Translations under genes and position numbers: made by a program
Source of the DNA: a virus
Lineage: Duplodnaviria; Heunggongvirae; Uroviricota; Caudoviricetes
Reading direction: 5' to 3' (one strand)
Virus record (IMG/VR): IMGVR_UViG_2740892271_000013
Length of the DNA: 45,778 bases
In this document: piece by piece, positions 1-41,987 of the stretch
Layout: each line of letters begins with the position of its first letter
How positions within the stretch are numbered: the stretch's first letter is position 1
Notes under the pieces: generated by a model
The model's database searches: none
What the model saw: the letters and a program-made list of their open reading frames with translations, nothing else
Told to the model about the DNA's origin: nothing

Positions 1-7
1 AAGAAAT

Positions 8-38
8 AGGGCTTCCACCTGGGAAGCCCTTTCTTTTT
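8..38. terminator. Bidirectional rho-independent terminator downstream of pspG
   Basis: 9-bp GC-rich stem (8-16 pairs with 22-30), loop acctg, followed by TTCTTTTT on the plus strand and a U-rich stretch on the minus strand. Confidence 0.5.
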
Positions 39-165
39 ATAGTTCGGCTGTATGTAGGGTACAGCACGATGAATCTGTTAGAGGCGCAATAGTGACAGAT
101 TTGATTATCAATTCCTATTTTGTTCTAAGGATAAAACCTTAGGTTGTGATCATCCGCACAATCCC

Positions 166-408
166 TTAGTAACGCCAGCGGTCATAACGCTGATATTTCG
201 GCACTTTTGGTGCTTTAATCGCCTTAATAACCCACACCACCGCAATCGCCAGTAGTAACCACGGCAGCAACTTAATCATCAATGCCAGCATACCGCCGAG
301 GAACATAATGGCCGTCGCCACAACCAGCGCGGCGATAATGCCCAGCAACGAAACGCCGGTGACCATCAGCATGACAAAAAAGCCAATCACAAAAAGTAGT
401 TCCAGCAT
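166..408 (-). CDS. pspG: Phage shock protein G (small inner-membrane protein)
   Basis: 80-aa translation MLELLFVIGFFVMLMVTGVSLLGIIAALVVATAIMFLGG...KYQRYDRWRY recognised as PspG; the listed 150-aa ORF is an upstream in-frame extension, true start is the internal ATG at 408. Confidence 0.85.
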   Translation of the reverse strand: MLELLFVIGFFVMLMVTGVSLLGIIAALVVATAIMFLGGMLALMIKLLPWLLLAIAVVWVIKAIKAPKVPKYQRYDRWRY

Positions 409-443
409 GATGCTCTCCCAAATATGAAATCTCTTGCTGGCAT

Positions 444-459
444 TACAAGAATCATGCCA
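444..459 (-). promoter_or_regulatory. Sigma-54 type promoter (-24 TGGCAT / -12 TTGTA) upstream of pspG
   Basis: Minus-strand sequence TGGCATGATTCTTGTA has the GG-N10-G(C/T) spacing of sigma-54 promoters; psp genes are known PspF/sigma-54 targets. Confidence 0.55.
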
Positions 460-541
460 AAAATAATCTATTGATTTAACAGCAAAACGCCCCGCGACGG
501 TGCGCAGGGCGTGGTGAATTTGACTACTTTTTGGTGAAAAG

Positions 542-1579
542 TTAACGCTTATCCGCCACCAGTTTGAGCGCGTGTTCCAGCACATTAATGTCTGCACCCG
601 CTTTATGGGCATTTTCACTTAAATAACGCCGCCACTGCCGCGCGCCAGGAATACCCTGGAACAAGCCCAACATATGCCGGGTAATATGGCCGAGATACGT
701 CCCCTGGCTGAGTTCACGCTCAATGTACGGATACATGGCGCGCACTACCGCCACCGGATCGGCATCGGTATCCGAGGAACCAAAGATCTCCCGGTCTACC
801 GCCGCCAGAATACCCGGATTCTGATACGCCTCGCGCCCGACCATCACGCCATCCATATGTTGCAGGTGTGCTTTGGCCTCTTCCAGCGACTTGATACCAC
901 CGTTAATCGACATTGTCAGATGCGGAAAGTCACGCTTCAGTTGATACACACGCGGATAATCGAGTGGCGGGATTTCACGGTTTTCTTTCGGGCTTAACCC
1001 CGAAAGCCAGGCTTTACGTGCGTGGATGATAAACATCTCACACTCGCCTTTGCCGGAAACGGTGTTGATGAAATCGCAGAGAAATTCATAGCTGTCCTGG
1101 TCATCGATGCCAATACGCGTTTTCACCGTCACTGGAATCGACACCACATCGCGCATCGCTTTCACGCAGTCGGCAACCAGCTGCGCATTACCCATCAGAC
1201 ACGCACCAAACATGCCGTTCTGCACCCGGTCAGACGGGCAGCCGACATTCAGGTTGATCTCATCATATCCACGCGCTTCTGCCAGCTTCGCACACTGTGC
1301 CAGCGCCGCCGGATCGCTACCGCCGAGTTGCAACGCTACCGGATGTTCTTCTTCACTGTACGCCAGGTAATCACCTTTACCGTGAATAATCGCCCCTGTG
1401 GTCACCATTTCGGTATACAGCAACGTATTGCGGGAAAGCAGACGCAAGAAATAGCGGCAATGTCTGTCCGTCCAGTCGAGCATAGGAGCAATGCTAAACC
1501 GAGAACTCCAGTAAGCGCCAGTTTTTTCAGGCATCACGCTGGTTTGATTAGTTTTCTGTGTTTCAGGATTATCGTGCAT
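542..1579 (-). CDS. dusA: tRNA-dihydrouridine(20/20a) synthase DusA
   Basis: 345-aa translation with DusA-characteristic stretches ([49 protein letters not shown]); the first ~30 codons may be supplied by the integrated element; an alternative internal start (MPEKT...) exists. Confidence 0.9.
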
Positions 1580-1613
1580 TTTTGAACATTTCAGGCTATT
1601 TTTCTCGCGTTAG

Positions 1614-1647
1614 GTTCCCGCACAGGTTCCCACGCTTTATGGGAACC
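1614..1647. promoter_or_regulatory. Recombinase core-type site candidate: GGTTCCC direct repeat plus inverted repeat GGTTCCCA-N7-TGGGAACC
   Basis: Perfect 8-bp inverted repeat with 7-bp spacer (1625-1647) and an extra GGTTCCC copy at 1614-1620, in the 88-bp dusA-int divergent intergenic region. Confidence 0.35.
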
Positions 1648-1667
1648 CGAAATAACGAGGTCGTGTA

Positions 1668-2765
1668 ATGGCGTACTATAACATAGAGAAACGACTAAAA
1701 TCCGATGGCACACCACGCTATCGCTGTAATGTGATTATCAAAGAAAAAGGTGTTATCACTTACAGGGAAAGCAAAACATTCCCTAAACATGCTCATGCCA
1801 AAACATGGGGCGCACAGAAAGTGATGGAATTAGATCTATATGGCATTCCATCATCAAATGCTGTTGACGGACTTACAGTCCGTGACTTACTACACAAATA
1901 TTTAAATGACCCAAATGCCGGAGGTAAAGCAGGCCGTACTAAAAGATATGTGCTGGAACTGCTTATGGATAGTGACATCTCCGCGATCAAACTATCTGAA
2001 CTGACAGAAAATGACGTAATTGAACATTGCAGGCTAAGAAACAACGCTGGTGCAGGCCCAGCAACAGTCAGCCACGATGTTAGTTATCTTGGCAGTGTTC
2101 TGGATGCGGCAAAACCTGTATACGGAATCAATTACACATCAAACCCGGCGAAAAGCGCTCGTCCATATCTACTTAAACTCGGTTTGATTGGTAAATCAAA
2201 CCGTCGTAATCGTAGACCAGCATCTGATGAACTGAACATGCTCATTGAAGGCCTTCAACAACGATCTACTCATAAATGCTCAAAAATTCCGTTCGTTGAT
2301 ATCCTCAAATTTTCTGTGTGGTCCTGTATGCGAATCGGAGAAGTATGCCGGTTACGATGGGAAGATCTCGACCAGGAACAAAAATCTATACTAGTAAGAG
2401 ACAGGAAAGATCCACGTAAAAAGGAAGGCAACCATATGAAAGTTGCCTTGCTTGGGGAAGCCTGGGATATCGTCCAGCGACAACCCAAAAAATCAGAATT
2501 CATTTTTCCATATAACAGCACTTCTGTTACCGCAGGATTTCAGAGGGTAAGAAGCAAATTAGGTATTAAAGATCTGAGATACCATGATTTGCGTAGAGAA
2601 GGGGCAAGTCGCTTATTTGAGGCTGGTTTTAGTATTGAGGAAGTCGCTCAGGTTACAGGGCATCGTTCATTAAACGTGCTATGGCAGGTATATACCGAAC
2701 TGTATCCGAAATCTTTACATAATCGTTTTGAAGAACTCCAAAGGAGCAGAAATAAGACCTCTTGA
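1668..2765 (+). CDS. int: Tyrosine-type site-specific integrase (dusA-targeting family candidate)
   Basis: 365 aa; C-terminal catalytic region with HDLRREGASRLFEAG and GHRSLNVLWQVYTELY (R-H-R-Y signature); GAGG ribosome-binding site 7 nt upstream; location next to dusA 5' end. Confidence 0.85.
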   Translation: MAYYNIEKRLKSDGTPRYRCNVIIKEKGVITYRESKTFPKHAHAKTWGAQKVMELDLYGIPSSNAVDGLTVRDLLHKYLNDPNAGGKAGRTKRYVLELLMDSDISAIKLSELTENDVIEHCRLRNNAGAGPATVSHDVSYLGSVLDAAKPVYGINYTSNPAKSARPYLLKLGLIGKSNRRNRRPASDELNMLIEGLQQRSTHKCSKIPFVDILKFSVWSCMRIGEVCRLRWEDLDQEQKSILVRDRKDPRKKEGNHMKVALLGEAWDIVQRQPKKSEFIFPYNSTSVTAGFQRVRSKLGIKDLRYHDLRREGASRLFEAGFSIEEVAQVTGHRSLNVLWQVYTELYPKSLHNRFEELQRSRNKTS

Positions 2766-2813
2766 CACTGTTTATCCATACAGTTAAAAATAATACTGTA
2801 TACAAATACAGTG
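2762..2813 (+). promoter_or_regulatory. SOS-regulated promoter with two tandem LexA boxes upstream of the dinI-like gene
   Basis: TTGACA at 2762-2767; LexA boxes cactgtttatccatacagtt (2766-2785) and tactgtatacaaatacagtg (2794-2813), both CTG-N10-CAG. Confidence 0.7.
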
Positions 2814-2825
2814 TAGGGGACTTTT

Positions 2826-3074
2826 ATGCGTATTGAAATCTGCATAGCCAAAGAAAAAATGACTAAAATGCCAACCGGTGCTGTGGATGCGTTAAAGGAA
2901 GAATTAACCCGACGCATCAGTAAACGTTATGACGATGTAGAAGTGATCGTAAAAGCCACCAGCAACGATGGCCTTTCTGTTACGCGCACCGCTGATAAAG
3001 ATTCAGCTAAAACTTTTGTTCAGGAGACTCTGAAAGATACCTGGGAGTCTGCTGACGAGTGGTTTGTTCATTAA
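2826..3074 (+). CDS. DinI-like DNA-damage-inducible protein (RecA modulator family)
   Basis: 82 aa [11 protein letters not shown]...[13 protein letters not shown]...[16 protein letters not shown] resembles DinI (C-terminal TWESADxWF); LexA boxes upstream. Confidence 0.8.
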
Positions 3075-3105
3075 GTTCATCATCTCTGGACACCATTCAC
3101 TTGTA

Positions 3106-3134
3106 TTGACTTTAAGATCATTAAATTGTAATAA
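3106..3134 (+). promoter_or_regulatory. Sigma-70-like promoter (TTGACT-N17-TAATAA) for the RT cassette
   Basis: -35 TTGACT 3106-3111, 17-nt spacer, -10 TAATAA 3129-3134; predicted start near 3141. Confidence 0.45.
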
Positions 3135-3140
3135 TTCAAA

Positions 3141-3296
3141 GGGATGGGGCAGGTTTTTCCTCTTGCGCATGCAAGGGCGGCTCTGATAATGAACAGTAAT
3201 ATTTTACTGTTGAGCTTATGCTCACTGATCCTGCCGGGCAGGATGTTCAACGGTTCCAATATATCCTGCCCCTTCCGCTTTTAAAAAGGATCTTTT
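3141..3296 (+). ncRNA. Structured 5' leader / candidate RT-associated non-coding RNA with repeated GGCAGG/CCTGCC motif
   Basis: GGGGCAGG (3146-3153), palindrome ATCCTGCCgGGCAGGAT (3228-3244), ATCCTGCCCC (3263-3272) and small hairpins (CAGTAA/TTACTG 3194-3209); no ORF of 60 aa or more; immediately upstream of the membrane-protein and RT genes. Confidence 0.3.
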
Positions 3297-3848
3297 ATGC
3301 ATGACAATATTTGGTTTACATATAAAGCACGTATCCAAGCGCACCATCGACTAGAATGGCTTGAAAAACACTCTCAATTTATCCTCGTTTGGTATGCTAT
3401 ATTGAGTGCGGTACTTTCAATTGTAACGTTGCGATTTCCAAAGGTTCTAGGAGATAATACAGATGTCGTTGCGGCGATACTTTCAGTGGCTCTACTGGGT
3501 ATTTCTCTGATCGTATCTAACCTAGATTTTCGTGGTCGAGCAATAGCCATGAGAAGGAATTATATTGCACTACAGCGACTCTATTTTGACATTACCACCA
3601 GTCAACAGTTATCTCTTGAACAGAAAGAAAAATATTTTAATTTGCTCAATGAGGTTGAGAATCACCGTGACATAGATGATAAAATTTCAAGGGTAACTCA
3701 AGTTGGACTTAAGACGAGGATCCCCACACAAAAAGAAAAAATAATTGTTATTTTATGGATATTACTTCGAATATTTATTACTGCCGCACTTTATATACTC
3801 CCATTAATATATCTTTGGATTGACTATGACTGCAAGCAGAATTTTTAA
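3297..3848 (+). CDS. Small membrane protein with three predicted TM helices (SLATT-like effector candidate), overlaps the RT gene
   Basis: 183 aa; hydrophobic helices FILVWYAILSAVLSIVTL, VVAAILSVALLGISLIVSNL and IIVILWILLRIFITAALYILPLIYLWI, charged helical middle; AAGGA ribosome-binding site; 29-nt overlap with RT start. Confidence 0.6.
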   Translation: MHDNIWFTYKARIQAHHRLEWLEKHSQFILVWYAILSAVLSIVTLRFPKVLGDNTDVVAAILSVALLGISLIVSNLDFRGRAIAMRRNYIALQRLYFDITTSQQLSLEQKEKYFNLLNEVENHRDIDDKISRVTQVGLKTRIPTQKEKIIVILWILLRIFITAALYILPLIYLWIDYDCKQNF

Positions 3849-5196
3849 AAAGTCATTCTCGAAAAAAAATCTTCTAAAAGTATACTCTGAAAAAATCAAA
3901 GAATCAGGAGCGATTGGCATAGATCGGATTCGCCCATCAAAACTTGATTTGACAATAAAAAATGAGATCACTTTCATTTTTGAAAAGGTTAATTCTGGCA
4001 ATTACAAATTTACAGCATATAAAGAAAAATTAATATCTAAAGGCGCTAACTCTACACCCAGACAGATTTCCATACCAACTGCTAGGGACAGAATTACTCT
4101 TAGAGCTCTCTGTGAATGCCTTACGGAAATATATCCTAAGTCCAGATTAAAACTACCACATACAGTAATTGACTCATTGAAAGAAGCATTAAACAACAGT
4201 CTATATGCTGAATATGCAAAAATAGATCTTAAAAGTTTCTATCCTTCAATTGAACATAAATTGATAATTAATGCAATAAAAAATAAAATTAGAAAAAAAG
4301 AAATTAGACAGTTAATAACATCATCATTAATCGTGCCTACTGTAAGTGGAACCACAGGAAGCAAAGGTATCCCTAATAATACCAGAGGAGTACCTCAGGG
4401 ATTAGCGATATCAAACATTTTAGCTGAAATATCACTATCTAATTTCGATGATGAAATCAATAAAATGCATGACATATGGTACATGCGATACGTTGATGAC
4501 ATTCTTATTTTAACACCAAAATATCAAGCAACAAAAATAGCTTCTCATATCATTGATAAGCTTCAATCATTAAATTTAAACCCACATCCATTAAATGAAG
4601 AGAACTCAAAATCCAAAGTAGGCAGCTTGGATGAAAGTTTCAACTTTTTGGGCTACCACATAAAAAATCGAGAATTATTGATAAAACATGAGAGCATTCT
4701 TAGATTTGAGTCATCCTTAGCAAAAATTTTTACTGCATATAGACACGCTCTACTACAAGCTAAAAATAAGCGCGATAAAGAACGAGCTGTTGCATATTGT
4801 CAGTGGAAACTAAATCTTAGAATTACGGGATGTGTGTTTGAAGGTAAACGATTGGGATGGGTATCGTACTTCTCACAAATAACGTCAACAGCTCAACTTC
4901 GAGCTGTTAATCATACGATCAATAATCTTATCCGCCGATTCGGCCTTTCATCAGAAATAAAACCAAAGTCTTTGATTAAAACTTTCTATGAACTCCGCAG
5001 GGGTAGAGCGGAGACTTTTAAATACATACCTAACTTTGACAATCTACATATATCTCAGAAACGAGAAATTGTTTCTATGTGGATAGGGAAAGAGAATGAA
5101 AAAAAACTTAGCAATAGTGAAATAGAGAGAAAATTTAAATTTAAAATTGCGAAATCAGTAAAAGAGCTTGAAGAGGACATTTCAGGGATATCATAG
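3820..5196 (+). CDS. Reverse transcriptase (retron/Abi/UG-like, not intron-type)
   Basis: 458 aa; RT motifs seen directly: KIDLKSFYPSI (motif A), GVPQGLAISNILAEI (motif B), YMRYVDDILIL (YVDD, motif C), FNFLGYHI (motif E); about 160-aa C-terminal extension of unknown function. Confidence 0.85.
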   Translation: MTMTASRIFKKSFSKKNLLKVYSEKIKESGAIGIDRIRPSKLDLTIKNEITFIFEKVNSGNYKFTAYKEKLISKGANSTPRQISIPTARDRITLRALCECLTEIYPKSRLKLPHTVIDSLKEALNNSLYAEYAKIDLKSFYPSIEHKLIINAIKNKIRKKEIRQLITSSLIVPTVSGTTGSKGIPNNTRGVPQGLAISNILAEISLSNFDDEINKMHDIWYMRYVDDILILTPKYQATKIASHIIDKLQSLNLNPHPLNEENSKSKVGSLDESFNFLGYHIKNRELLIKHESILRFESSLAKIFTAYRHALLQAKNKRDKERAVAYCQWKLNLRITGCVFEGKRLGWVSYFSQITSTAQLRAVNHTINNLIRRFGLSSEIKPKSLIKTFYELRRGRAETFKYIPNFDNLHISQKREIVSMWIGKENEKKLSNSEIERKFKFKIAKSVKELEEDISGIS

Positions 5197-5290
5197 ATAT
5201 GTAATCCATTAAATCCTTTATATATAAAGCAATAAACACACTATTTAAATTCACAAATCAGCCGCAGTATCCTGCCATGACAAGTTGCTG

Positions 5291-5792
5291 NNNNNNNNNN
5301 NNNNNNNNNNNNNNNNNNNNNNNNNNNNNNNNNNNNNNNNNNNNNNNNNNNNNNNNNNNNNNNNNNNNNNNNNNNNNNNNNNNNNNNNNNNNNNNNNNNN
5401 NNNNNNNNNNNNNNNNNNNNNNNNNNNNNNNNNNNNNNNNNNNNNNNNNNNNNNNNNNNNNNNNNNNNNNNNNNNNNNNNNNNNNNNNNNNNNNNNNNNN
5501 NNNNNNNNNNNNNNNNNNNNNNNNNNNNNNNNNNNNNNNNNNNNNNNNNNNNNNNNNNNNNNNNNNNNNNNNNNNNNNNNNNNNNNNNNNNNNNNNNNNN
5601 NNNNNNNNNNNNNNNNNNNNNNNNNNNNNNNNNNNNNNNNNNNNNNNNNNNNNNNNNNNNNNNNNNNNNNNNNNNNNNNNNNNNNNNNNNNNNNNNNNNN
5701 NNNNNNNNNNNNNNNNNNNNNNNNNNNNNNNNNNNNNNNNNNNNNNNNNNNNNNNNNNNNNNNNNNNNNNNNNNNNNNNNNNNNNNNNNNNN
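5291..5792. other. Run of N (assembly gap or masked sequence)
   Basis: 502 consecutive n characters. Confidence 1.
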
Positions 5793-6104
5793 CCCTTCCG
5801 GGGATAACCAGGTAACATTTTCCGGTAACGGACCGAGTTCAGAAATAAATAACGCGTCCCCTGACGCTACGTCATAAACCGTTTTACCCCGATGGTCTTC
5901 AACGAGATGCCACGATGCCTCATCACTGTTGAAAACAGCCACAAAGCCAGCCGGAATATCTGGCGGTGCAATATAGGTACTGTTTGCTGGCAGACCTGTA
6001 TGAGGCGGAATATATGCGTCACCTTCACCAATAAATTCATTAGTTCCGGTCAGCAGATTATAAATTTTTATGGTCCGTGGTTGTTCACTCATTCTGAATG
6101 CCAT
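5793..6104 (-). CDS. tfa: Tail fibre assembly protein (lambda Tfa-like), 3' end lost in the N run
   Basis: N-terminal 104 aa [79 protein letters not shown]... matches lambda Tfa; start overlaps stf stop. Confidence 0.8.
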
Positions 6105-9100
6105 TATGCAAGCCTCACAATATAGTTAAATGCGATGTTTTTGACGGTGTTTTCCGCGTTACCCGCAGCGTTAACGGTGATGGTATGTCCATGTGAACCA
6201 ATCGCAACGGAGTGCGTATGAGCACCAATACCGACAGTATGCGCGTGTGCACCTGCAGATGCTGCTGTGCCGGACAGTGAGTGGCTATGATTACCATCTG
6301 TACTGGTATTCGCTAACCACCCCGTAGACATACCTACTGAGCCTTGTACACCCCAGGTATTTTGACCTGAGCTTGTATAACCATATTGATAAGTATCTTT
6401 AAAAACACTGGGGTTAAATCGACGGCCATCTCTATGGCTGTGATTACCAGCTGCATTCGTGCTGCCACTTAAACTATGGGTATGCGCACCAGTGTTATTC
6501 GTGGATTTAGTGCCGTAATCAAACGACGATGTGGTTTTCGTCCCCAAATCCGTACTGGATGCGCTGGCGCTGTGGGTATGCGATTTAATGCCGTCCTGTT
6601 CCTGAGACAATACGGCCCGACCACTGGCAGGTTTGCCCTTAATCGTCCAGCCACGCATATCAGGGATCACACCTGACGGATAAACGGCTGCAAGTTTCGG
6701 GTAAGCAGATTTGTCAAAAGTCTGTCCCTGCATCAGGGCATAACCAGACGGAACGGTATCTGATGGCCACGGGATTGGTGCACCGACTGGGTAGCTTTCT
6801 GGTGGAAGATTTTTCGAGGTATAAACTTCTGCCCAGTCTTCCTCAAAACCATAACCGTCTCTTGAAGAACGGTAGAACAGACCACCATTTCTGTAATGCG
6901 CCTTCATCTGCAAGGTCCGGCAACTTCCGACTCCGGTATAGAAGTTAACCAGAATATAGCTGTTGCCAGAGCGGGTGACATTGTAAGCGCCTGATTCGGC
7001 ATTCCATGGAACGCCACCATCCGCATCGGCATATGTATCCGTTGCCCTTCTGGCAAAAGCAGCCACATGCGCGGCGGTTAAAGTAATATCTTTGGAACCA
7101 TCAAACTCAACACCAGAAACCAGTCTTGGCGTTTGCAGCTTTGTTGCTGTCAATGCGTTACCGTTCAGACTTGCAGACAGTTTGGTTCCAATAACCAGTT
7201 CGCCGGTTGCGTTATCAATAACAAACGGTCTTAATGTATTCCAGCCACCATAAACATCACCTTGATTGGTAAGCAGCAGGTAAGTTTTAGCGCCATCATT
7301 ACGCCATAATGCACCATACTCCCCACCTATCATTCGAATCTGATTACCACCACGCGCTACAATTTCGTCTGTGGCAAAAAGTTTTTTGCACGACAAGTTA
7401 TCGTTAACGATTAACGAATGAGACTCATAAAAACCACGCCCACTCTTAAAATCAAGGATAACGTCCGCCGCGATACATTCAGTCGCCGGATTTGTTGCCC
7501 CAAACTTATAGGTCGTATCATTAACAACGAGATCAGCACCAGGTGCGGATATTGACAGGCCATCTTCGAGAAACGCAAAAACAGGGAAAGCAGCGCCATC
7601 AACATAGAACACAGAGCGCAAATCATCGCCCTTATTACTCATCATTATTGAGTGGATGGCTCGTTCATTGTTTTGATATTGCCAGAACATTCCATAAGCA
7701 TAACGCCCCCTGTCAGTCCAGCCACCAGGCATAACAAATCCGTTAAACTCGCAGTTATTCATCGGATCGCCTGCGATTCGCGTTGCCGTGGTGATAATGA
7801 CCCTTGATGCCAGTTCGCTTACTGAGCCAGCAGAACGCATAACAACAACAGGGTAATATTTTCCAGATGTTGCACCTGCAGGAGCGTTAACCCGCACATA
7901 ACGCATACCACGCTTATCAGCAAAGTCTGTTTTACTGACCGCGTTAATGTTGTTCAGGAAGCGTCCCTTATCGGGTATATCAGCGCCGTTCTGGTCTTTC
8001 TGCAGACGTTTCTCAGCATTGTCATTGGCTGCTTTTACTGCCTTTGGCGTTGCCGCCAGCGTTTCAGACGTGCTATTAGTCGCACTACTGAGCTGTACTA
8101 TCCCCTTTTTCGTCGTGCTCGCATCCTCAAGCGCCACGGCGGATGCAATATCCTCTGCACGTTTTGCCGCTGTCTCGGCGCGCGTTGCCGCGGATTCCGC
8201 CGTACTTTTGCTCTGTGCTGCCGCCGTCGCACTGCCAGCAGCCTCTGTCGCCTTCGTGGATGCTGTCGTGGCGCTGCCCTTCGCTGCGGACGCTTGTCTG
8301 GTCGCCTCATCTTTTGAAGCAGACGCCGATGATGCCGATGACGCCGCCGAACTGGCGGACGATGCGGCAGCCGTTTTTGAGGATTCTGCGCTGGTCTCCG
8401 ACGCTTTCGCGTTCGTCTCCGATGTCTTCGCTGCGGAAGCAGACCTCGCTGCTGCACTGGCCTGTTCAGTGGCTTCGCCAGCCTTCGTTGTGGCTGTTGA
8501 AGCGGACGATGCGGCGCTTTCTGCCGATTTTCCGGCGGCGCTAGCACTGGCTGAGGCCTGCCCGGCACTTGTTGACGCTGCACTGGCAGACGACGCAGCC
8601 GCTGTTTTTGAGCCTGCTGCTGCGGAGGCACTCTGTGCTGCTGCCGTTTCAGAGGACTTAGCGTTTGTCTCAGACGTCTTTGCCGCCTTCGCGGAATTTC
8701 CTGCCGCCGTTGCCGAGGAAGCGGCATTACTGGCGCTCGAAGCTGCGCTCGTTTCTGATAATTTTGCCGCCTCTTTTGAAGCCGACGCATCTCTGGCTGA
8801 GGTGGCTGCTTCTGACGCTTTCGTGGTCGCGGTGGATGCAGAAGTGGCAGCTGATTGTTGTGACGCTGCCGCATTCGTTTCTGACGTTTTCGCCGCACCG
8901 GCACTGGTGGCCGCCGCGCTTTTTGAGGACTCTGCAGCGGCAGCACTTTTTGATGCTTCAGTGGCCTTTGCTGATGCCGTTCCTGCGCTGGAAGACGCAG
9001 ACTGAGCCGACGAAGCGGCCTGTCCGGCTGACNNNNNNNNNNNNNNNNNNNNNNNNNNNNNNNNNNNNNNNNNNNNNNNNNNNNNNNNNNNNNNNNNNNN

Positions 9101-9572
9101 NNNNNNNNNNNNNNNNNNNNNNNNNNNNNNNNNNNNNNNNNNNNNNNNNNNNNNNNNNNNNNNNNNNNNNNNNNNNNNNNNNNNNNNNNNNNNNNNNNNN
9201 NNNNNNNNNNNNNNNNNNNNNNNNNNNNNNNNNNNNNNNNNNNNNNNNNNNNNNNNNNNNNNNNNNNNNNNNNNNNNNNNNNNNNNNNNNNNNNNNNNNN
9301 NNNNNNNNNNNNNNNNNNNNNNNNNNNNNNNNNNNNNNNNNNNNNNNNNCGGCATGTGACGGCGGGAATCCTTCCACCAACAGAATAACGCTGTACTGAC
9401 CGTACTCAACGTCCATGCTGTAACGCCCGGCTTCATCCGGATTTTCTGAGGCCAGCGTGTTCACCACCACCGTGGTGCTGTTACGTTTTGCTTTCAGCTG
9501 GATTGTGCAGTTCTGTACCGGTTTTCCTGTGCCGTCTTTCAGTACACCTGAAATCTTTACTGCCATATTCAC
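6104..9572 (-). CDS. stf: Side tail fibre protein (lambda Stf / Rac StfR-like), interrupted by an N run
   Basis: N-terminus [39 protein letters not shown], long Ala/Ser/Thr-rich shaft repeats, His-rich C-terminal region ending [31 protein letters not shown]; frame break across 9032-9349 is a gap artefact. Confidence 0.85.
9032..9349. other. Run of N (assembly gap or masked sequence) inside stf
   Basis: 318 consecutive n characters. Confidence 1.
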
Positions 9573-15068: not shown

Positions 15069-15806
15069 TTACTGCGAAAGTTTGTTAATGGAAAGGAAGC
15101 CGCCAAAGTTGCCGACGTTATTGCGAAACTTACAGCCGCTCAGGCATTTGCTGCATTTATCCTTCGTGATATCGGACGTCGGCTGATCATATTCATCCGC
15201 GACCGCCGGACCGTGATAACCGCACTCATCGCCGCGATAGGTCCAGGTGCAGGTGTTGGCCAGCATGATACGTCCCGGAAAAACGGCACCGTCCGTTTCC
15301 GTCGGCGTGGACAGTACAAAGGAGGCACTGACCGCGCTCAGTTCGCTGCACTGCTCGATGCGCCAGCGGCTGATCACCTCCTGCTCCGGATCGGCGTCAC
15401 TGTTTCCGTTGACGAAGTTCACCGCATCCAGAAAACGGGCGTAAACCTTACGCCGGACCACCGTTCCGCCGACCAGACTCTGCAGATCTTCCGCCATCCC
15501 GGTGACCATGCCGTGCAGGTTAGAAACCGTCAGTGTCGGACGGGCAGCACTGCCCTTGCCGTTCAGTTCAANNNNNNNNNNNNNNNNNNNNNNNNNNNNN
15601 NNNNNNNNNNATCCCGTCCCCTGAATGGGATACGCCTGATACTGTCGCCCCTGCCAGGTGACCGGCTCACCTTTTTCGTTCTGCTCATTACAGAAAAAAT
15701 AACGTTCTCCACCGACCTCTGTCAGATCGATTTCCCAGAGCACCACCTGGGCTGACTGAGTGAGGCGTGTCGTCTCATGATGTGTTTCCTGTGGAATATC
15801 CTGCAT
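15069..15806 (-). CDS. L: Minor tail protein L
   Basis: 245 aa resembling lambda gpL including C-terminal Cys cluster (CSKCLSGCKF); contains a 39-nt N run. Confidence 0.8.
   Translation of the reverse strand: MQDIPQETHHETTRLTQSAQVVLWEIDLTEVGGERYFFCNEQNEKGEPVTWQGRQYQAYPIQGTGXXXXXXXXXXXXXXELNGKGSAARPTLTVSNLHGMVTGMAEDLQSLVGGTVVRRKVYARFLDAVNFVNGNSDADPEQEVISRWRIEQCSELSAVSASFVLSTPTETDGAVFPGRIMLANTCTWTYRGDECGYHGPAVADEYDQPTSDITKDKCSKCLSGCKFRNNVGNFGGFLSINKLSQ
15572..15610. other. Run of N inside gene L
   Basis: 39 consecutive n characters. Confidence 1.
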
Positions 15807-30632: not shown

Positions 30633-30944
30633 NNNNNNNNNNNNNNNNNNNNNNNNNNNNNNNNNNNNNNNNNNNNNNNNNNNNNNNNNNNNNNNNNNNN
30701 NNNNNNNNNNNNNNNNNNNNNNNNNNNNNNNNNNNNNNNNNNNNNNNNNNNNNNNNNNNNNNNNNNNNNNNNNNNNNNNNNNNNNNNNNNNNNNNNNNNN
30801 NNNNNNNNNNNNNNNNNNNNNNNNNNNNNNNNNNNNNNNNNNNNNNNNNNNNNNNNNNNNNNNNNNNNNNNNNNNNNNNNNNNNNNNNNNNNNNNNNNNN
30901 NNNNNNNNNNNNNNNNNNNNNNNNNNNNNNNNNNNNNNNNNNNN
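30633..30944. other. Run of N inside the holin region
   Basis: 312 consecutive n characters. Confidence 1.
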
Positions 30945-37373: not shown

Positions 37374-37867
37374 TAAGCCCCCACGTAATTCCCTGACAGA
37401 TACCACTCTTCACCCGATGCAGCGCGCTTGCTGCTTTTCCGTAAGCACCGCTCACGACGCGCCAGAAAATTGTTTCGTTCTGGCTGGGAGTGGCTTTCAC
37501 GGAATGCCGCCATCCACACCGTTGCAGCACGACGGTATAAGCCCCTGGACTCCAGTTCTTCCGCCTGGCGGGTCAGGCACAAAATCACCCGGGGATCGTT
37601 AGTGCCGACATAGAAATTGCGCACAGGTCTGGTTTCACGAACTGGTTGTGGTTCCGGCTCCTGCGCTCTCTCAGTCAGGCGTGGGAAATGTCTGCGTGTA
37701 TCTCCTTCATAACGGTGAGCCACACGCCCACTCTGACGTAACTTGCTTGCTGACTGCAGAACGCGCTGCCGTGAGTAACCTGCAAAAGCATCCGCAATGT
37801 CTCCGGAAGTACACCCCGGATGGGCTTCAATGAATTTCTGAACTTCATTCAAAAGACTCATGATCAC
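37373..37867 (-). CDS. Hypothetical protein, possible winged-helix regulator
   Basis: 164-aa ORF translationally coupled on both sides; Arg-rich C-terminal half; family not recognised. Confidence 0.4.
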   Translation of the reverse strand: MIMSLLNEVQKFIEAHPGCTSGDIADAFAGYSRQRVLQSASKLRQSGRVAHRYEGDTRRHFPRLTERAQEPEPQPVRETRPVRNFYVGTNDPRVILCLTRQAEELESRGLYRRAATVWMAAFRESHSQPERNNFLARRERCLRKSSKRAASGEEWYLSGNYVGA

Positions 37868-38682
37868 CCCCTGAATCCTGCCGGGATCTGGCTGTAGTCC
37901 ACGTTGTCGTAACTGGCTTTGAAGTACGGGTCCTCGCGTCTGGCTGCAGATACCGCAGGAACTTCCCAGAATTCTTCGAAATGACGATCCGGACCAAAGA
38001 ACGTGACAGCCTGTTTCACAAATTGTGTGCCGCTGTTACCCATCGCAGATACCCATCCCGCGTAGCGTTTCACACCTTCCAGCATGGTTTCGGGGTTTAC
38101 TCCCTCATTCAAACGGGCTTTCCAGGCTTTGAAGGCTGCAGATTTTGAATTGCCACCAGCACGTTTGGGATATGCCAGCCATGCCTGCTCAAACTCCGGA
38201 GAGTATTCCGGTCGGTTTGAACGAACTCGCACGGACTCATCAACTGATGCACCAACAGCTATTGGTTCATTGACTGGTTCTTTGACTGGTTCAAAAGAGT
38301 GACTGGTTCTGGGTGAATCTCCTGCACTACCCCCTGGTGCAACTCCTGCACTACCTGGTGAATTTGCTGCACCAGATAGTGAATTATTTGCACTACCCCC
38401 TAGTGAATCTCCTGCACCATCCAGATGAAGGAGATAGATATTACTTGAGTTACCTTTTTCACCTTTCCGGGTGACTTTTTTTACCAGCCCGGACTCACAA
38501 AGGGCCGCAATATGATTCATCACAGAACGTTTGCTAATTTCGCACTGGTCAGCAATATGCTGGTAGCTGGGCCAGCACTCACCCTGATCGCTGGCATTAT
38601 CAGCCAGCTTGATCAGAACCAGTTTTCGCAATGGATTACCCACTCGAATTTTCATCGCTTTAACCATCAGCTCCATACTCAT
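37864..38682 (-). CDS. Replication initiation / replisome organiser protein (O-like)
   Basis: 272 aa; N-terminal helix-turn-helix (WPSYQHIADQCEISKRSVMNHIAALCESGLV), Gly/Ser-rich linker encoded by DNA iterons, C-terminal domain. Confidence 0.65.
   Translation of the reverse strand: MSMELMVKAMKIRVGNPLRKLVLIKLADNASDQGECWPSYQHIADQCEISKRSVMNHIAALCESGLVKKVTRKGEKGNSSNIYLLHLDGAGDSLGGSANNSLSGAANSPGSAGVAPGGSAGDSPRTSHSFEPVKEPVNEPIAVGASVDESVRVRSNRPEYSPEFEQAWLAYPKRAGGNSKSAAFKAWKARLNEGVNPETMLEGVKRYAGWVSAMGNSGTQFVKQAVTFFGPDRHFEEFWEVPAVSAARREDPYFKASYDNVDYSQIPAGFRG
38261..38422. repeat. Candidate origin of replication iterons inside the O-like gene
   Basis: Three copies of TGACTGGTTC (38271, 38283, 38300) and five tandem 21-24-bp repeats of type GTGAATnTnCTGCACnACC (38313-38422). 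Confidence 0.5.
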
Positions 38683-38915
38683 GCTGCACCTCCGAGATGC
38701 TTCATGTTTTTTCCGGAGCGAAAGGCTATAAGCGGCATACTGACGCGGTAATTACGGCCCAGCGGTTCACAAATCACCTTCTGGCATTCACGGTCAACCA
38801 GGCTAACACGTAGAACATGCCCTGCAGGCGTGGTGTACCACTGCCCAACTGTAGGAATTGATATTTTTTTACGCTGAAGCAAACGGCAAATATTGAGGAT
38901 CAACGGATTAAGCAT
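38679..38915 (-). CDS. Hypothetical small protein
   Basis: 78-aa ORF overlapping both neighbours by a few nt. Confidence 0.35.
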   Translation of the reverse strand: MLNPLILNICRLLQRKKISIPTVGQWYTTPAGHVLRVSLVDRECQKVICEPLGRNYRVSMPLIAFRSGKNMKHLGGAA

Positions 38916-39744
38916 GACGATGCCCTCCGCTGATATTCAGGAGACGGTGAATATGAAAATTAGCCTTATCCGCCAGACGAATACGTTCAGCTTGCAAGTT
39001 AAGAAGGGTTTCTACCAGAACCTGATGTGCCTGCGGATCCGAAAGAGTTACCTTGCGCAGAGCACGTAGTGCAGTTGTTACATAACTGAGTTTATGTAAG
39101 TCTTCATCATTCAGACGAGTGAGGGCTGGGACAGTAGCCATGATGGCAGCCTCCTTGATCGGTGAAATACTTCCACCACCGGAAACGCCAATTTCGCTGG
39201 TGGTGAACTGAACGGGGTTGGCGTAACCGGTGATCAAGGAAACCGGCGCATCTTTCGATGCCCCCGCCCAGCCCACCATAACTTTGATGTGAGCAAATGC
39301 GGACGATAAAAAAGACGCTGGCGCGTCATATATCGCCTTGATCAATTCCAGGACGCCAATCCCGGCACCCGCTTTATAAGGTGCCTGAACAGTGTAACGT
39401 CCCGGAATGGCAGAATCAATGTGCTGGTGGTCCTTCACACTCAACAAAATCACGCCTGAATTTCCACAAAGGACTAAAGCACTCATGCGGGTAGTCTTTG
39501 CGAAGATAGATAACGCGCTGTGTTTCTGGCTCCCAACGAATAACATGAACATAAAGTCCTCTTCCGTCACGAAACCAGCGGTTAAGTTCCTGCACAACTC
39601 GCCCCCCACAGTCAGGTAAAGTTCTCTGTGGTTACTTACAGCCAGGTGATTTGGTAATCTGCATTCATGCCGTAACAACAGGTGTTCAGCGACGCTGACC
39701 ACCAGCTGTTGCGACAAACGGTTATTTGCCGTTAAACTGTTCAT
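38908..39744 (-). CDS. Hypothetical protein of unknown family in the early-right operon
   Basis: 278-aa ORF between cII-like and O-like genes; Gly-rich segments (AGAGIGV, SGGGS); no recognised motif. Confidence 0.45.
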   Translation of the reverse strand: MNSLTANNRLSQQLVVSVAEHLLLRHECRLPNHLAVSNHRELYLTVGGELCRNLTAGFVTEEDFMFMLFVGSQKHSALSIFAKTTRMSALVLCGNSGVILLSVKDHQHIDSAIPGRYTVQAPYKAGAGIGVLELIKAIYDAPASFLSSAFAHIKVMVGWAGASKDAPVSLITGYANPVQFTTSEIGVSGGGSISPIKEAAIMATVPALTRLNDEDLHKLSYVTTALRALRKVTLSDPQAHQVLVETLLNLQAERIRLADKANFHIHRLLNISGGHRHA

Positions 39745-40304
39745 GCGTTAGTTTCTCCACAGACACAAAACGCCACGACGCCCGGAGCTGCACACTCGCG
39801 GGCGTCACTCTTTTCTGGAGCGCAAAAGATTTTGTAGACCAGTGCTGCATGCTCCTGGAGCTTCGAAATTGACAGATACAACTCATCATTAATTGCTGTC
39901 TGCTCGTGTGGCTCCACTACCCCATCTTCGATTGCCGAACGAATCTGCTTTGAGTAACTCCCGATCTGTTCGATGACTTCCAGCAGGCGCTGGTTTATAT
40001 CGGCGTTCTCTACTTCCTCAATTTCAGGAAGCGATACAAACACCCCACCAGCAGACTGTGCGACAGCATCCGCAATGTAGTGAGTGCCAGCCGCGCGCTG
40101 TAAAATCATTGCCCATCCCAGCGGGAAAATCTGATCGCCATCTGCACGAAGGCGGTTGAATAAAGCGTTCTCTGTTACATCCAGCCACTCAGCAGCTTCA
40201 GCGTAACCCCCCGGCAACGCCGCGATAGTTTTTCTGACAGCTTTCACGTACCACTCAGGCTGTTTTTCTACTTTCCAGTGATGCTTACCCACGGTTAGCC
40301 TCAT
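39741..40304 (-). CDS. CII-like regulatory protein (YdaT/Phage_CII-like)
   Basis: 187 aa; position directly downstream of cro-like gene; helix-turn-helix-like segment AEAAEWLDVTENALFNRL. Confidence 0.45.
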   Translation of the reverse strand: MRLTVGKHHWKVEKQPEWYVKAVRKTIAALPGGYAEAAEWLDVTENALFNRLRADGDQIFPLGWAMILQRAAGTHYIADAVAQSAGGVFVSLPEIEEVENADINQRLLEVIEQIGSYSKQIRSAIEDGVVEPHEQTAINDELYLSISKLQEHAALVYKIFCAPEKSDARECAAPGVVAFCVCGETNA

Positions 40305-40335
40305 CGTTCTGTGGTTAAAAATTGAAGGTGTTCTG

Positions 40336-40536
40336 TTAATCTTTCGGATAGATATCCGGTCTTAAGTCAGATTTCGTAATTGCACCTGACGTGCATTGCT
40401 CAAGTTTTTTAGCCAGCACAAAACTGGCTTTTTTATAACCATTGAAAACCAGCCGTAAGTAGCCTGGTGTTGAGCCAACTTTTCCGGCCAACTCACCCTG
40501 CTGTTCTTTGGTTAAAGAGTCCCAATACGCTTTCAT
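40336..40536 (-). CDS. cro: Cro-like repressor (helix-turn-helix)
   Basis: 66 aa MKAYWDSLTKEQQGELAGKVGSTPGYLRLVFNGYKKASFVLAKKLEQ...; GGAGGT ribosome-binding site; divergent from cI across an operator region. Confidence 0.7.
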   Translation of the reverse strand: MKAYWDSLTKEQQGELAGKVGSTPGYLRLVFNGYKKASFVLAKKLEQCTSGAITKSDLRPDIYPKD

Positions 40537-40542
40537 ACAATA

Positions 40543-40620
40543 TGTACCTCCGGTATACATATTACATGATTGAGATGAACCTTCAAGATACTTGTACCTT
40601 ATCGGTACAAAGGTTTTAAT
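40543..40620. promoter_or_regulatory. Immunity switch: operators (A/T)TGTACC-N5-GGTACA(A/T) with divergent PR-like and PRM-like promoters
   Basis: Perfect palindrome TTGTACCttatcGGTACAA (40592-40610) and related ATGTACCtccggTATACAT (40543-40559); minus-strand TTGAAG-N16-TAATAT; plus-strand TTGTAC-N17-TTTAAT ending at the cI ATG. Confidence 0.55.
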
Positions 40621-40626
40621 TTCTTT

Positions 40627-41301
40627 ATGAAAACAGTCCATGACATCCGGCGGTCTAACGCCAGAAAACTGAGAGATGGTGTTGGCGGGAATTCTTCCTT
40701 TGCCACCATGATTGATCGCGAGCCAACCCAGACCAGCAGGTTTATGGGAGATGGTGCAACTAAAAATATCGGTGACAGCATGGCACGGCACATCGAAAAA
40801 TGTTTCGACCTGCCTGTCGGATGGCTTGATCAAGAACACCAGACAACGAACATCACAAAAAAACCTGACGTTTCAATCACTAACAAACAAATAACGTTAG
40901 TCCCTGTCATATCATGGGTACAGGCCGGAGCATGGAAAGAAGTTGGCTATTCTGAGGTTGATTTGAGCACAGCAGAAACTTATCCCTGCCCTGTACCCTG
41001 TGGCGAAATGACTTATATCTTGCGGGTGATTGGTGATTCAATGATTGATGAGTACCGCCCGGGAGACATGATTTTTGTTGATCCTGAAGTCCCTGCCTGC
41101 CACGGTGACGACGTTATTGCATTGATGCACGATACAGGCGAAACCACCTTCAAGCGGTTGATAGAAGATGGAACACAGCGTTATCTCAAAGCATTAAACC
41201 CAAACTGGCCTGAGCCTTACATTAAGATTAACGGTAATTGCTCTATAATTGGTACAGTGATTTTCTCAGGAAAACCAAGAAGATACATAATAAAGGCCTA
41301 A
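40627..41301 (+). CDS. cI: CI-like repressor (XRE-type helix-turn-helix plus S24 LexA-like peptidase domain)
   Basis: 224 aa; C-terminal autocleavage domain with Ser (VIGDSM) and Lys (TTFKRL); N-terminal helix-turn-helix. Confidence 0.8.
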   Translation: MKTVHDIRRSNARKLRDGVGGNSSFATMIDREPTQTSRFMGDGATKNIGDSMARHIEKCFDLPVGWLDQEHQTTNITKKPDVSITNKQITLVPVISWVQAGAWKEVGYSEVDLSTAETYPCPVPCGEMTYILRVIGDSMIDEYRPGDMIFVDPEVPACHGDDVIALMHDTGETTFKRLIEDGTQRYLKALNPNWPEPYIKINGNCSIIGTVIFSGKPRRYIIKA

Positions 41302-41312
41302 TCAATATTTAT

Positions 41313-41337
41313 AACCTGCTTCGGCAGGTTTTTTTAT
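41313..41337 (+). terminator. Rho-independent terminator downstream of cI
   Basis: ACCTGC-ttcg-GCAGGT followed by TTTTTTTAT. Confidence 0.65.
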
Positions 41338-41339
41338 AC

Positions 41340-41367
41340 TTGACAATGTACCTTTGGGATACATAAT
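41340..41367 (+). promoter_or_regulatory. PL-like early-left promoter (TTGACA-N16-CATAAT) with embedded operator
   Basis: -35 TTGACA 41340-41345, -10 CATAAT 41362-41367; spacer holds ATGTACCtttggGATACAT, a third copy of the immunity operator. Confidence 0.6.
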
Positions 41368-41805: not shown

Positions 41806-41850
41806 CGGTACCAGTTTGTACACTTGCTTCCGGCTGGTACCGCTCTTTTT
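41806..41850 (+). terminator. Strong rho-independent terminator inside the early-left leader
   Basis: 9-bp stem CGGTACCAG/CTGGTACCG with 18-nt loop followed by CTCTTTTT. Confidence 0.55.
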
Positions 41851-41936: not shown

Positions 41937-41987
41937 TGTGGAGAAACCAACCGACCTTGCAGGGTCGATATGATTAGGAGCAGCAAA

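What the first reader, a model, noticed from the sequence alone, without database searches (positions are those of the whole stretch)
3075..5290. Reverse transcriptase overlapped by a 3-TM SLATT-like protein gene, behind a repeat-rich leader, in the int-proximal accessory region
The 458-aa ORF carries an unambiguous RT core (KIDLKSFYPSI, VPQGLAISNIL, YMRYVDDILIL, FNFLGYHI) of the retron/Abi/UG kind plus a 160-aa C-terminal extension. The upstream 183-aa gene overlaps it by 29 nt and encodes a small membrane protein (two central TM helices plus a C-terminal one), the architecture of pore-type effectors. The pair has its own promoter and a 155-nt untranslated leader. It sits between int/dinI and the tail fibre genes, the nonessential region of lambdoid phages where defence cargo accumulates. 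The gene order (leader, membrane protein, RT) does not match a textbook retron (ncRNA, RT, effector), so this may be an undescribed or poorly characterised RT defence module.
Basis: partly seen in the sequence, partly recalled or inferred. Interest (0 to 1): 0.88.

Follow-up and report, generated by a model that had tools for sequence, protein, structure and literature searches.

The report
Known DRT10 reverse-transcriptase phage defence cassette
This is a prophage-borne copy of DRT10, a recently described anti-phage system in which a small RNA, a reverse transcriptase and a membrane protein act together. It is about 98% identical to the version already dissected in the laboratory, so it is real but not new.

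Summary
A SLATT_5 membrane protein gene (3297-3848) overlaps a UG17 reverse transcriptase gene (3826-5196). Both lie behind a promoter (3106-3135) and a 155-nt structured "leader", between int/dinI and the tail-fibre genes of a lambdoid prophage inserted at dusA.

The interpretation needs two corrections.
- The leader is the third component, a 137-nt ncRNA (3142-3278). A covariance model built only from non-E. coli homologues finds it as the single hit in the window (E 5e-30). Of its 34 base pairs, 17 show compensatory changes.
- The module is not undescribed. It is DRT10 (UG17-A), covered by three preprints from 2025-2026.

The window RT differs at 8 of 397 comparable residues from Eco3DRT10, the model system of two of those preprints. 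Every functionally mapped nucleotide and residue is present: the C107 stop, G86/G104, the linkers, the C116 priming site, YVDD, R371, K385, Y388 and the priming Ser456.

The one difference of note is the template: CAACGGUUC here against CAAUGAUUC in Eco3. This predicts protein-primed tandem repeats of GAACCGTTG. The window allele is the commoner one, in 154 of the 188 complete E. coli genomes that carry the cassette.

Verdict: already known, low interest.

The parts
3106..3135 (+). Sigma-70-type promoter: -35 TTGACT 3106-3111, 18-nt spacer, extended -10 TG-AATAAT 3130-3135. It predicts an RNA start at about 3142.
   Evidence: Consensus scan, 10 of 12 matches with TG. The sequence is invariant in five E. 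coli alleles. The predicted start coincides with nt 1 of the ncRNA as inferred from the published Eco3 numbering.
3142..3278 (+). DRT10 ncRNA, 137 nt. SL1 (basal stem) 3142-3153/3265-3276; SL2 3158-3166/3171-3180; Loop A about 3181-3191 (U43 = 3184, G44 = 3185); SL3 3192-3199/3204-3211; SL4 3212-3215/3220-3223; SL5 3228-3234/3238-3244; Loop B (template loop) 3245-3264.
   Evidence: MFE -59 kcal/mol, z = -4.5, 0 of 200 shuffles fold as well. On 26 homologues, 17 of 34 pairs show compensatory changes and 97.7% of cells are paired against about 50% when partners are slid; 0 of 500 shuffles reach the observed score. A CM built from 23 non-E. coli sequences gives a single window hit, 3142-3280 +, 119.8 bits, E 5e-30. 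No Rfam family matches.
3248..3256 (+). Predicted template (A-B): CAAC-GGUUC, Eco3 nt 107-115. Predicted cDNA repeat unit 5'-GAACCGTTG-3'. It differs from the Eco3 template CAAUGAUUC by U110C (3251) and A112G (3253).
   Evidence: Alignment with the CE10 allele, which carries the published Eco3 template. Numbering check. A-B-A' scan. Published stop at C107 and published motif GAATCATTG.
3257..3260 (+). Realignment segment A' (CAAU, Eco3 nt 116-119). C116 (3257) is the published site of the first templated nucleotide.
   Evidence: A' begins with CAA in 24 of the 26 homologues.
3297..3848 (+). SLATT_5 membrane effector gene, 183 aa, with three hydrophobic segments. AAGGA Shine-Dalgarno sequence 8 nt upstream.
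   Evidence: Pfam SLATT_5 1.3e-28; PADLOC RTasSLATT 1.5e-56. Hydropathy. Differs from the CE10 (Eco3-type) protein at 4 of 183 residues.
3826..5196 (+). UG17 (DRT10) reverse transcriptase gene, 456 aa from ATG 3826, overlapping the SLATT gene by 23 nt. YVDD at 222-225; R371, K385, Y388; C-terminal priming Ser456.
   Evidence: PADLOC RT_UG17 1.1e-158, full length. 8 differences in 397 residues from Eco3 RT OKX54664. Key residues present and invariant in 28 homologues.

Best explanation
The cassette is a complete, apparently intact DRT10 (UG17-A) anti-phage system, a natural allele of the Eco3DRT10 system studied by Tang, Ramirez, Sternberg and colleagues.

Shown here:
- All three components are present: ncRNA 3142-3278, SLATT 3297-3848 and RT 3826-5196.
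- Every mapped functional position is conserved.

Taken from the literature on the roughly 98%-identical Eco3 system:
- Two RT monomers bind one ncRNA.
- The monomer on Loop B starts DNA synthesis from the hydroxyl of its own C-terminal Ser456, opposite C116.
- It copies the short template up to C107, where the SL5 anchor (G104/G86 and R371) stops it.
- The nascent DNA then unpairs, re-pairs with the downstream A' segment, and the cycle repeats. The result is kilobase-long single-stranded tandem-repeat DNA covalently attached to the RT.
- ncRNA, RT catalysis, Ser456 and SLATT are all required for defence against many BASEL phages.

Inferred for this allele:
- The repeat unit is 5'-GAACCGTTG-3' (9 nt) rather than GAATCATTG.
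- Realignment uses three Watson-Crick pairs (CAA) plus a G:U wobble.

Inferred and unresolved in the field:
- The state or abundance of the repeat DNA gates the SLATT pore, giving membrane damage and abortive infection.
- In a related system, host exonuclease SbcB and phage SSB-like proteins set the threshold.
For: - HMM membership: RT_UG17 1.1e-158 over the full length, next best Drt3a 3.2e-38; RTasSLATT 1.5e-56; SLATT_5 1.3e-28.
- Near-identity to the tested system: 8 of 397 RT differences from OKX54664. CE10 carries an RT identical to Eco3 over those 397 residues, and an ncRNA with the published template.
- ncRNA: an independent CM hit at E 5e-30, strong covariation and strong folding.
- If nt 1 is set at 3142, then U43, G44, G86, G104, U105-106, C107, G111, C116, A117, U119 and A120-U123 all fall on the published bases. 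RT Y222 V223 D224 D225, R371, K385, Y388 and S456 are present.
- The A-B-A' pattern occurs in the same register in 24 of 26 homologues with at least 3 nt of homology.
- Experimental basis in the papers.
Against: - Nothing was measured for this allele. No cDNA, defence or toxicity data exist for the CAACGGUUC template that I could find; Table S3 of Tang et al. was truncated in the held copy.
- A and A' differ at their fourth base (CAAC against CAAU). Only a U110A substitution was reported as tolerated.
- The variant also creates a perfect alternative pattern, GUUC-AACG-GUUC (3245-3256). It would give an 8-nt repeat if the RT read 3 nt past C107.
- How the cDNA connects to SLATT is unknown. The two groups report opposite changes in cDNA level on infection.
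Confidence: 0.93

Rival explanations
1. It is a retron: the RT makes msDNA from an msr/msd RNA and guards a toxic effector.
For: Several database sources label homologues 'retron-type reverse transcriptase'. There is a structured RNA next to an RT and a small effector gene.
Against: No retron RT model appears among the 25 PADLOC matches shown, and RT_UG17 wins by about 120 orders of magnitude. No Rfam retron msr family matches, even at E <= 1. The gene order is ncRNA-effector-RT. The RNA has no long msd hairpin flanked by a1/a2 inverted repeats; it has the five-stem DRT10 fold. Priming in the near-identical Eco3 system is from a protein serine, not a 2'-OH of a branching G.
Confidence: 0.01
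2. It is a group II intron (or intron-like) RT/maturase remnant, not a defence system.
For: The closest solved structures by sequence are group II intron RTs (6ar1, 4.2e-14; 7uim, 2.8e-12).
Against: Those matches cover only the generic fingers/palm region. No group II intron RNA is found by Rfam in 2700-5300 on either strand. The RT is tightly coupled to a SLATT gene. UG17 is a full-length match.
Confidence: 0.01
3. It is a DRT10 cassette that makes a different or imprecise product in this allele, for example an 8-nt repeat CGTTGAAC from the GUUC-AACG-GUUC register, mixed repeats, or weakened synthesis because A and A' differ at the fourth base. Defence strength or spectrum might then differ from Eco3.
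For: The two template substitutions create a perfect 4-nt direct repeat 8 nt apart (3245-3248 and 3253-3256) and reduce the Eco3-register homology to 3 nt plus a wobble. Cryptic realignment sites are known to reduce precision in Eco1.
Against: The 5' boundary is set geometrically from the SL5 anchor, with a stop at C107. G104 is engaged in a Hoogsteen pair and U105-U106 act as an uncopied linker. All of these are unchanged here. Three nucleotides of homology suffice in Eco3. The same template occurs in Xenorhabdus (83% RT identity) and in 154 of 188 E. coli carriers, which argues that it is functional.
Confidence: 0.1
4. The cassette is a decayed, non-functional passenger of a defective prophage.
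For: In related genomes the neighbouring genes are often pseudogenes: a frameshifted dinI and truncated tail-fibre genes.
Against: Both ORFs are intact, all catalytic and priming residues are present, and the ncRNA keeps every stem. At least 15 complete genomes carry the 2.5-kb region at 100% identity, and intact RT and SLATT genes were annotated in all five carriers inspected.
Confidence: 0.03

Closest known systems
Eco3DRT10 (E. coli 703491; RT OKX54664.1), Tang et al. 2025 (bioRxiv 10.1101/2025.10.16.682844) and Ramirez et al. 2026 (bioRxiv 10.64898/2026.06.29.735271)
   Same: - Same architecture: promoter, 137-nt ncRNA, SLATT, then an overlapping 456-aa RT.
- RT about 98% identical (8 differences in 397 residues). 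SLATT has 4 of 183 differences from the CE10 copy of the Eco3 allele.
- Identical stems and linkers, C107 stop, C116 start, R371/K385/Y388 and Ser456.
- The same association with a tyrosine recombinase.
   Different: Three ncRNA substitutions relative to the Eco3-type (CE10) allele: one in SL2 (3166) and two in the template (U110C, A112G). The predicted repeat is therefore GAACCGTTG instead of GAATCATTG, and A/A' match at 3 of 4 bases plus a wobble. This allele has not itself been tested, as far as I could see.
UG17-A of Escherichia sp. E3659, Sanchez-Nieto et al. 2026 (bioRxiv 10.64898/2026.04.29.721553)
   Same: Same subtype logic: ncRNA upstream, SLATT_5, then RT. It makes tandem-repeat cDNA, and all three parts are required for defence.
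   Different: A different lineage: 186-aa SLATT, 445-aa RT, stop/start overlap only, 143-nt ncRNA with six stem-loops, 7-nt repeat. Regulation by SbcB and a phage SSB-like trigger was shown there, not for the Eco3 lineage.
DRT9 (UG28) and DRT2 (UG2), other Class 2 UG defence RTs
   Same: An upstream structured ncRNA templates repetitive, RT-dependent DNA synthesis. DRT9 is also protein-primed, and its ncRNA fold resembles that of DRT10.
   Different: DRT9 makes poly-dA from a U-tract as a hexamer and primes from tyrosine. DRT2 rolls around a 120-nt template to build a gene. Neither is encoded next to a SLATT gene in this arrangement. Their PADLOC models score far lower here (Drt9 6.6e-20, Drt2 1.2e-24).
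Telomerase (TERT plus telomerase RNA)
   Same: A short internal RNA template with a downstream alignment segment, a structured 5' template-boundary element, and repeat-addition processivity. The analogy and the phylogenetic link are claimed by Tang et al..
   Different: DRT10 primes from its own serine rather than from a chromosome end, is far smaller, works as 2 RT to 1 RNA, and serves immunity together with a membrane effector.

Membership tests
DRT10 (UG17) defence system | RT belongs to the UG17 clade of UG/Abi reverse transcriptases | tested here: met
   PADLOC RT_UG17 1.1e-158, 526.6 bits, profile positions 1-429 of 429; next best Drt3a 3.2e-38. The sequence matches a row of Tang et al. 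Table S1 over the part of that row shown.
DRT10 (UG17) defence system | Adjacent, tightly coupled SLATT (SLATT_5) gene in SLATT-RT order | tested here: met
   Pfam SLATT_5 100.1 bits (cut-off 29.5); PADLOC RTasSLATT 1.5e-56. 23-nt overlap with the RT gene.
DRT10 (UG17) defence system | Structured ncRNA upstream of SLATT with the family's conserved multi-stem fold | tested here: met
   CM from 23 non-E. coli homologues: single hit 3142-3280 +, 119.8 bits, E 5e-30. 17 of 34 pairs compensatory. z = -4.5.
DRT10 (UG17) defence system | [quoted passage not shown] | tested here: met
   CAAC-GGUUC-CAAU at 3248-3260, 3 nt after the 7-bp SL5. There are 3 exact nt of A/A' homology plus a possible G:U wobble. 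Same register as 24 of 26 homologues. Eco3 needs at least 3 nt.
DRT10 (UG17) defence system | Catalytic YVDD, C-terminal priming Ser/Tyr, and the RNA-anchoring residues R371, K385, Y388 | tested here: met
   All are present at the published positions. S456, R371, K385, Y388 and Y222-D225 are invariant in 28 homologues.
DRT10 (UG17) defence system | [quoted passage not shown] | not testable with these tools
   Shown for the 98%-identical Eco3 system. Only predicted here: (GAACCGTTG)n.
DRT10 (UG17) defence system | Confers RT-, SLATT- and ncRNA-dependent phage resistance | not testable with these tools
   Shown for Eco1-3 and E3659. Not measured for this allele.
Retron | Retron-clade RT with an msr/msd ncRNA (a1/a2 inverted repeats, branching G, long msd hairpin) | tested here: not met
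   No retron RT model appears among the 25 PADLOC matches shown. No Rfam retron family at E <= 1. The RNA fold is the five-stem DRT10 fold.
Group II intron | Intron ribozyme (domains I-VI) surrounding an RT/maturase ORF | tested here: not met
   No intron RNA match in 2700-5300 on either strand at E <= 1. Similarity to intron RTs is limited to the polymerase core.

The most novel reading that the evidence does not exclude
The repeat sequence may matter. Between the two E. coli alleles, 2 of the 3 ncRNA substitutions fall inside the 9-nt template, and only two template alleles segregate among 188 carriers (154 against 34). If the template were evolving under selection, the cDNA sequence would be a specificity determinant rather than a neutral filler. 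Selection could come, for example, from matching of repeat DNA to the co-evolving SLATT or RT, or from escaping phage nucleases or ssDNA-binding anti-defence proteins. That would give a natural handle on the open question of how the repeat DNA talks to SLATT.
Probability: 0.1. Interest if true: 0.5.

Novelty: already known. Interest (0 to 1): 0.15.

Why it matters
DRT10 is biologically striking: a telomerase-like, serine-primed repeat-DNA synthase wired to a membrane effector. This window adds no new kind of system.

Its practical value is in annotation. RefSeq still calls the genes only 'SLATT domain-containing protein' and 'reverse transcriptase domain-containing protein', and no RNA gene is annotated. 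Rfam 15 has no family for the ncRNA.

The survey also gives three modest facts:
- About 3.5% of complete E. coli genomes (188 of 5,426) carry this Eco3-lineage cassette.
- It travels as a dinI-ncRNA-SLATT-RT block in lambdoid prophages at two or more integration sites (dusA and next to prfC).
- The laboratory model carries the minority template allele.

Tried and rejected
- Rfam at E <= 1 over 2700-5300 gave only a chance bantam microRNA hit. There is no curated family for this RNA.
- A sequence search of the PDB gave no DRT10 entry, only generic RT cores. I therefore did not run a structure prediction. It could not have reported the Ser456-to-active-site distance, and a cryo-EM structure is already described.
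- I looked for the window's ncRNA, its template and its predicted motif in the supplementary tables of Tang et al. Tables S2 and S3 are truncated in the held copy, so I could not confirm what they predict for this allele.
- My first attempt to find the SLATT start in homologous loci by ORF walking was unreliable because of alternative start codons. I replaced it with tblastn anchoring.
- The single-sequence MFE fold pairs 3183-3185 with 3251-3253, that is, Loop A with the template. This pairing is absent from the consensus structure and I discarded it.
- The 8-nt register GUUC-AACG-GUUC, which I first read by eye, was demoted once the published geometric stop at C107 was mapped onto the window.
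- The retron, group II intron and decayed-remnant readings were considered and rejected; see the rival explanations.
Full report
**1. What is there**

ORF listing confirms two overlapping genes on the + strand: 3297-3848 (183 aa) and 3820/3826-5196 (458/456 aa).

The first gene matches Pfam SLATT_5 (1.3e-28, 100.1 bits against a cut-off of 29.5) and the PADLOC model 'RTasSLATT' (1.5e-56). The second carries RVT_1 and matches the PADLOC model RT_UG17 over the whole profile (1.1e-158). The next best model, Drt3a, scores 3.2e-38.

Hydropathy gives three membrane-span-like segments in the small protein, at about residues 27-45, 55-73 and 149-167.

The RT start is almost certainly ATG 3826:
- RefSeq annotates 456 aa in every genome inspected.
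- Most of the closest homologues listed are 456 aa.
- Tang et al. state that the 458-aa annotation of their Eco3 RT includes two spurious N-terminal residues.

The overlap with the SLATT gene is therefore 23 nt.

A promoter-like site (TTGACT, 18 nt, TG-AATAAT; 3106-3135) places the RNA start near 3142.

Upstream lie dusA (542-1579, -), a tyrosine integrase (1668-2765), and a DinI-like gene (2826-3074). Downstream on the opposite strand lie lambda-like genes for tail-fibre assembly, tail fibre, Lom, J and the rest of the tail and head.

**2. The leader is an RNA gene**

The segment 3135-3296 folds to -59 kcal/mol, against -42.9 +/- 3.6 for shuffles (z = -4.5).

I collected 44 loci encoding relatives of the RT from one genome per species. 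I anchored the SLATT start in each by tblastn and extracted the upstream region.

Sequences from Xenorhabdus, Photorhabdus, Buttiauxella, Pseudomonas, Stutzerimonas, Stenotrophomonas, Bordetella and a proteobacterial MAG fold into the same architecture. It consists of a long basal stem closing a ring of four smaller stem-loops and two single-stranded loops.

On a 26-sequence alignment:
- RNAalifold predicts 34 pairs, of which 17 show compensatory double changes.
- 97.7% of cells are paired, against 48-55% when partners are slid by 1-3 columns.
- None of 500 column shuffles reaches the observed covariation.

As an independent test I built a covariance model from the 23 non-E. coli sequences only. 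I searched the whole 45.8-kb window on both strands. The single hit is 3142-3280 (+), 119.8 bits, E 5e-30. Rfam 15 has no matching family.

**3. It is DRT10, and specifically the Eco3 lineage**

A literature search for UG17 plus SLATT returns three relevant items:
- Mestre et al. 2022, listed in that search as mentioning both UG17 and SLATT (I did not read it).
- Tang et al. (bioRxiv, October 2025), which named the system DRT10.
- Sanchez-Nieto et al. (bioRxiv, April 2026).

A further search found the cryo-EM study of Ramirez et al. (bioRxiv, June 2026).

Tang et al. show the following:
- UG17 operons protect E. coli against many BASEL phages.
- Defence needs the RT active site, the SLATT gene and a 137-nt ncRNA encoded upstream of SLATT.
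- RT and ncRNA alone make kilobase-long single-stranded DNA, consisting of tandem copies of a short motif.
- Synthesis is primed from the RT's own C-terminal serine (S456 in Eco3).

The Eco3 RT (OKX54664.1) is printed in their Table S1. Over the 397 residues shown, the window RT differs at 8 positions. The window RT matches another row of the same table (WP_077903186.1) over the part of that row shown.

E. coli CE10 carries an RT identical to Eco3 over those 397 residues. Its upstream RNA contains CAAUGAUUC-CAAU, the reverse complement of the published GAATCATTG motif plus A'. I therefore used CE10 as a proxy for the Eco3 ncRNA.

**4. Nucleotide-level mapping**

If ncRNA nt 1 is window 3142, the published landmarks all fall on the right bases:

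| Published Eco3 feature | Window coordinate |
|---|---|
| U43/G44 in Loop A | 3184/3185 |
| G86 | 3227 |
| G104 (Hoogsteen pair with G86 at the SL5 base) | 3245 |
| 5' linker U105-U106 | 3246-3247 |
| Stop site C107 | 3248 |
| G111 | 3252 |
| Priming site C116 | 3257 |
| A117 | 3258 |
| U119 | 3260 |
| 3' linker A120-U123 (AUAU) | 3261-3264 |

The RT has YVDD at 222-225, and also R371, K385, Y388 and S456. All are invariant in a 28-sequence alignment spanning 59-83% identity.

**5. What differs**

Across the 137 nt, the window and the Eco3-type allele differ at three positions: one in SL2 (3166) and two in the template (U110C at 3251 and A112G at 3253).

In the Eco3 register the template is CAACGGUUC and A' is CAAU. 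The predicted repeat is 5'-GAACCGTTG-3'. The 3' end of each repeat (…GTTG) can re-pair with CAAU through three Watson-Crick pairs and a G:U wobble. Eco3 tolerates a substitution at this fourth position, and three nucleotides of homology are enough.

The substitutions also create a perfect GUUC-AACG-GUUC pattern (3245-3256). Using it would require reading 3 nt past C107, through the linker and into G104. The structural work argues that the SL5 anchor prevents this geometrically. I give this alternative about 10%.

The window template is not an oddity:
- The same nine bases occur in Xenorhabdus santafensis (RT 83% identical).
- Among the 188 complete E. coli genomes with the cassette, 154 match the window over the 40 nt around the template and 34 match CE10 exactly.

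The laboratory model therefore carries the minority allele.

Other homologues have templates of 9-11 nt. [quoted passage not shown]

**6. Mechanism, with its status**

Shown here: all parts and all mapped functional positions are present.

Transferred from the near-identical Eco3 system:
- 2:1 RT:ncRNA assembly.
- Serine-primed initiation at C116.
- Stop at C107.
- Realignment at A'.
- Kilobase-long tandem repeats.
- A short abortive product from Loop A.
- Defence that requires all three parts.

Inferred: the repeat unit of this allele.

Unresolved in the field: how the DNA controls SLATT.
- Tang et al. see less cDNA after infection. They propose that the DNA restrains SLATT until it is lost.
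- Sanchez-Nieto et al., working with a different UG17-A lineage, see more first-strand cDNA after infection. [quoted passage not shown]

I commit to this reading: a constitutive repeat-DNA signal whose perturbation by infection opens a SLATT pore and aborts the infection. Confidence is high for the synthesis steps and low for the direction of the gating step.

**7. Distribution and context**

The 2.5-kb block is present at 80% coverage or more in 188 of 5,426 complete E. coli genomes. It is always chromosomal, usually in one copy, and 100% identical in many unrelated isolates.

The same dinI-ncRNA-SLATT-RT block sits next to a dusA-specific integrase in the window, in strain 6409 and in CFIAFB20190172. 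In CE10, MS6192 and 01G17CRGN001 it sits directly next to prfC. In every case lambdoid tail-fibre genes follow.

**8. Verdict**

The finding is real and correctly located, and its defence reading is right. It is already known, including at the level of this particular lineage. The only increments are three:
- an exact annotation of the ncRNA and template in this window;
- the prediction of a GAACCGTTG repeat;
- the allele frequencies.

Interest is low.

Noticed in passing
window 2768-2783 and 2796-2811: Two LexA-box-like palindromes (CTGT-N8-ACAG) lie in tandem just upstream of the DinI-like gene (ATG 2826). The whole window has 4 such matches against 0.53 expected. No terminator-like site was found between dinI (stop 3074) and the DRT10 promoter, so SOS induction might read through into the ncRNA-SLATT-RT unit.
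   Followed up: partly
window 3236-3244 with 3263-3271: A perfect 9-bp alternative pairing (GGGCAGGAT / ATCCTGCCC) would enclose the template loop in a hairpin and compete with both SL5 and the basal stem SL1. SL1 and SL5 also share the GGGCAGG/CCTGCC sequence as direct repeats. Whether this alternative conformer has any role is unknown.
   Followed up: no
window 5291-5792, 9033-9349, 15572-15610, 30633-30944: Four runs of N (1,170 bases in all) mask parts of the tail-fibre assembly gene, the tail-fibre gene and other phage genes. ORFs crossing them, such as 5241-6104 and 6104-9436, cannot be read fully.
   Followed up: no
L045-L047 (E. coli MS6192, CE10, 01G17CRGN001) compared with window 1-3074: The same dinI-DRT10 block occurs in prophages or remnants directly adjacent to prfC with no integrase between them, and in prophages at dusA with an integrase. 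In several genomes dinI is frameshifted or the tail-fibre genes are truncated while DRT10 stays intact.
   Followed up: partly
window 44790-45778 (- strand): At the far end of the window, an ORF with a SocA/Panacea antitoxin domain (45206-45778, 1.8e-18; it starts at the last bases of the window) is followed by an overlapping 139-aa ORF with no Pfam match (44790-45209). This could be a toxin-antitoxin pair in the prophage early region.
   Followed up: no
window 37864-43240: This is the prophage immunity and replication region: a CI-like S24 peptidase repressor (40627-41301, +), a divergent YdaS-like/Cro-side ORF, CII (39741-40304), an Ash-family protein, an HTH/DnaD-like replication protein, and a DUF2303 protein (42416-43240). 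Two further CTGT-N8-ACAG sites lie at 32111 and 39626.
   Followed up: no
window 3142-3278 and RefSeq records: None of the five RefSeq records inspected annotates an RNA gene here. The proteins carry only generic names, and Rfam 15 has no DRT10 ncRNA family. This is an annotation gap rather than a biological one.
   Followed up: yes
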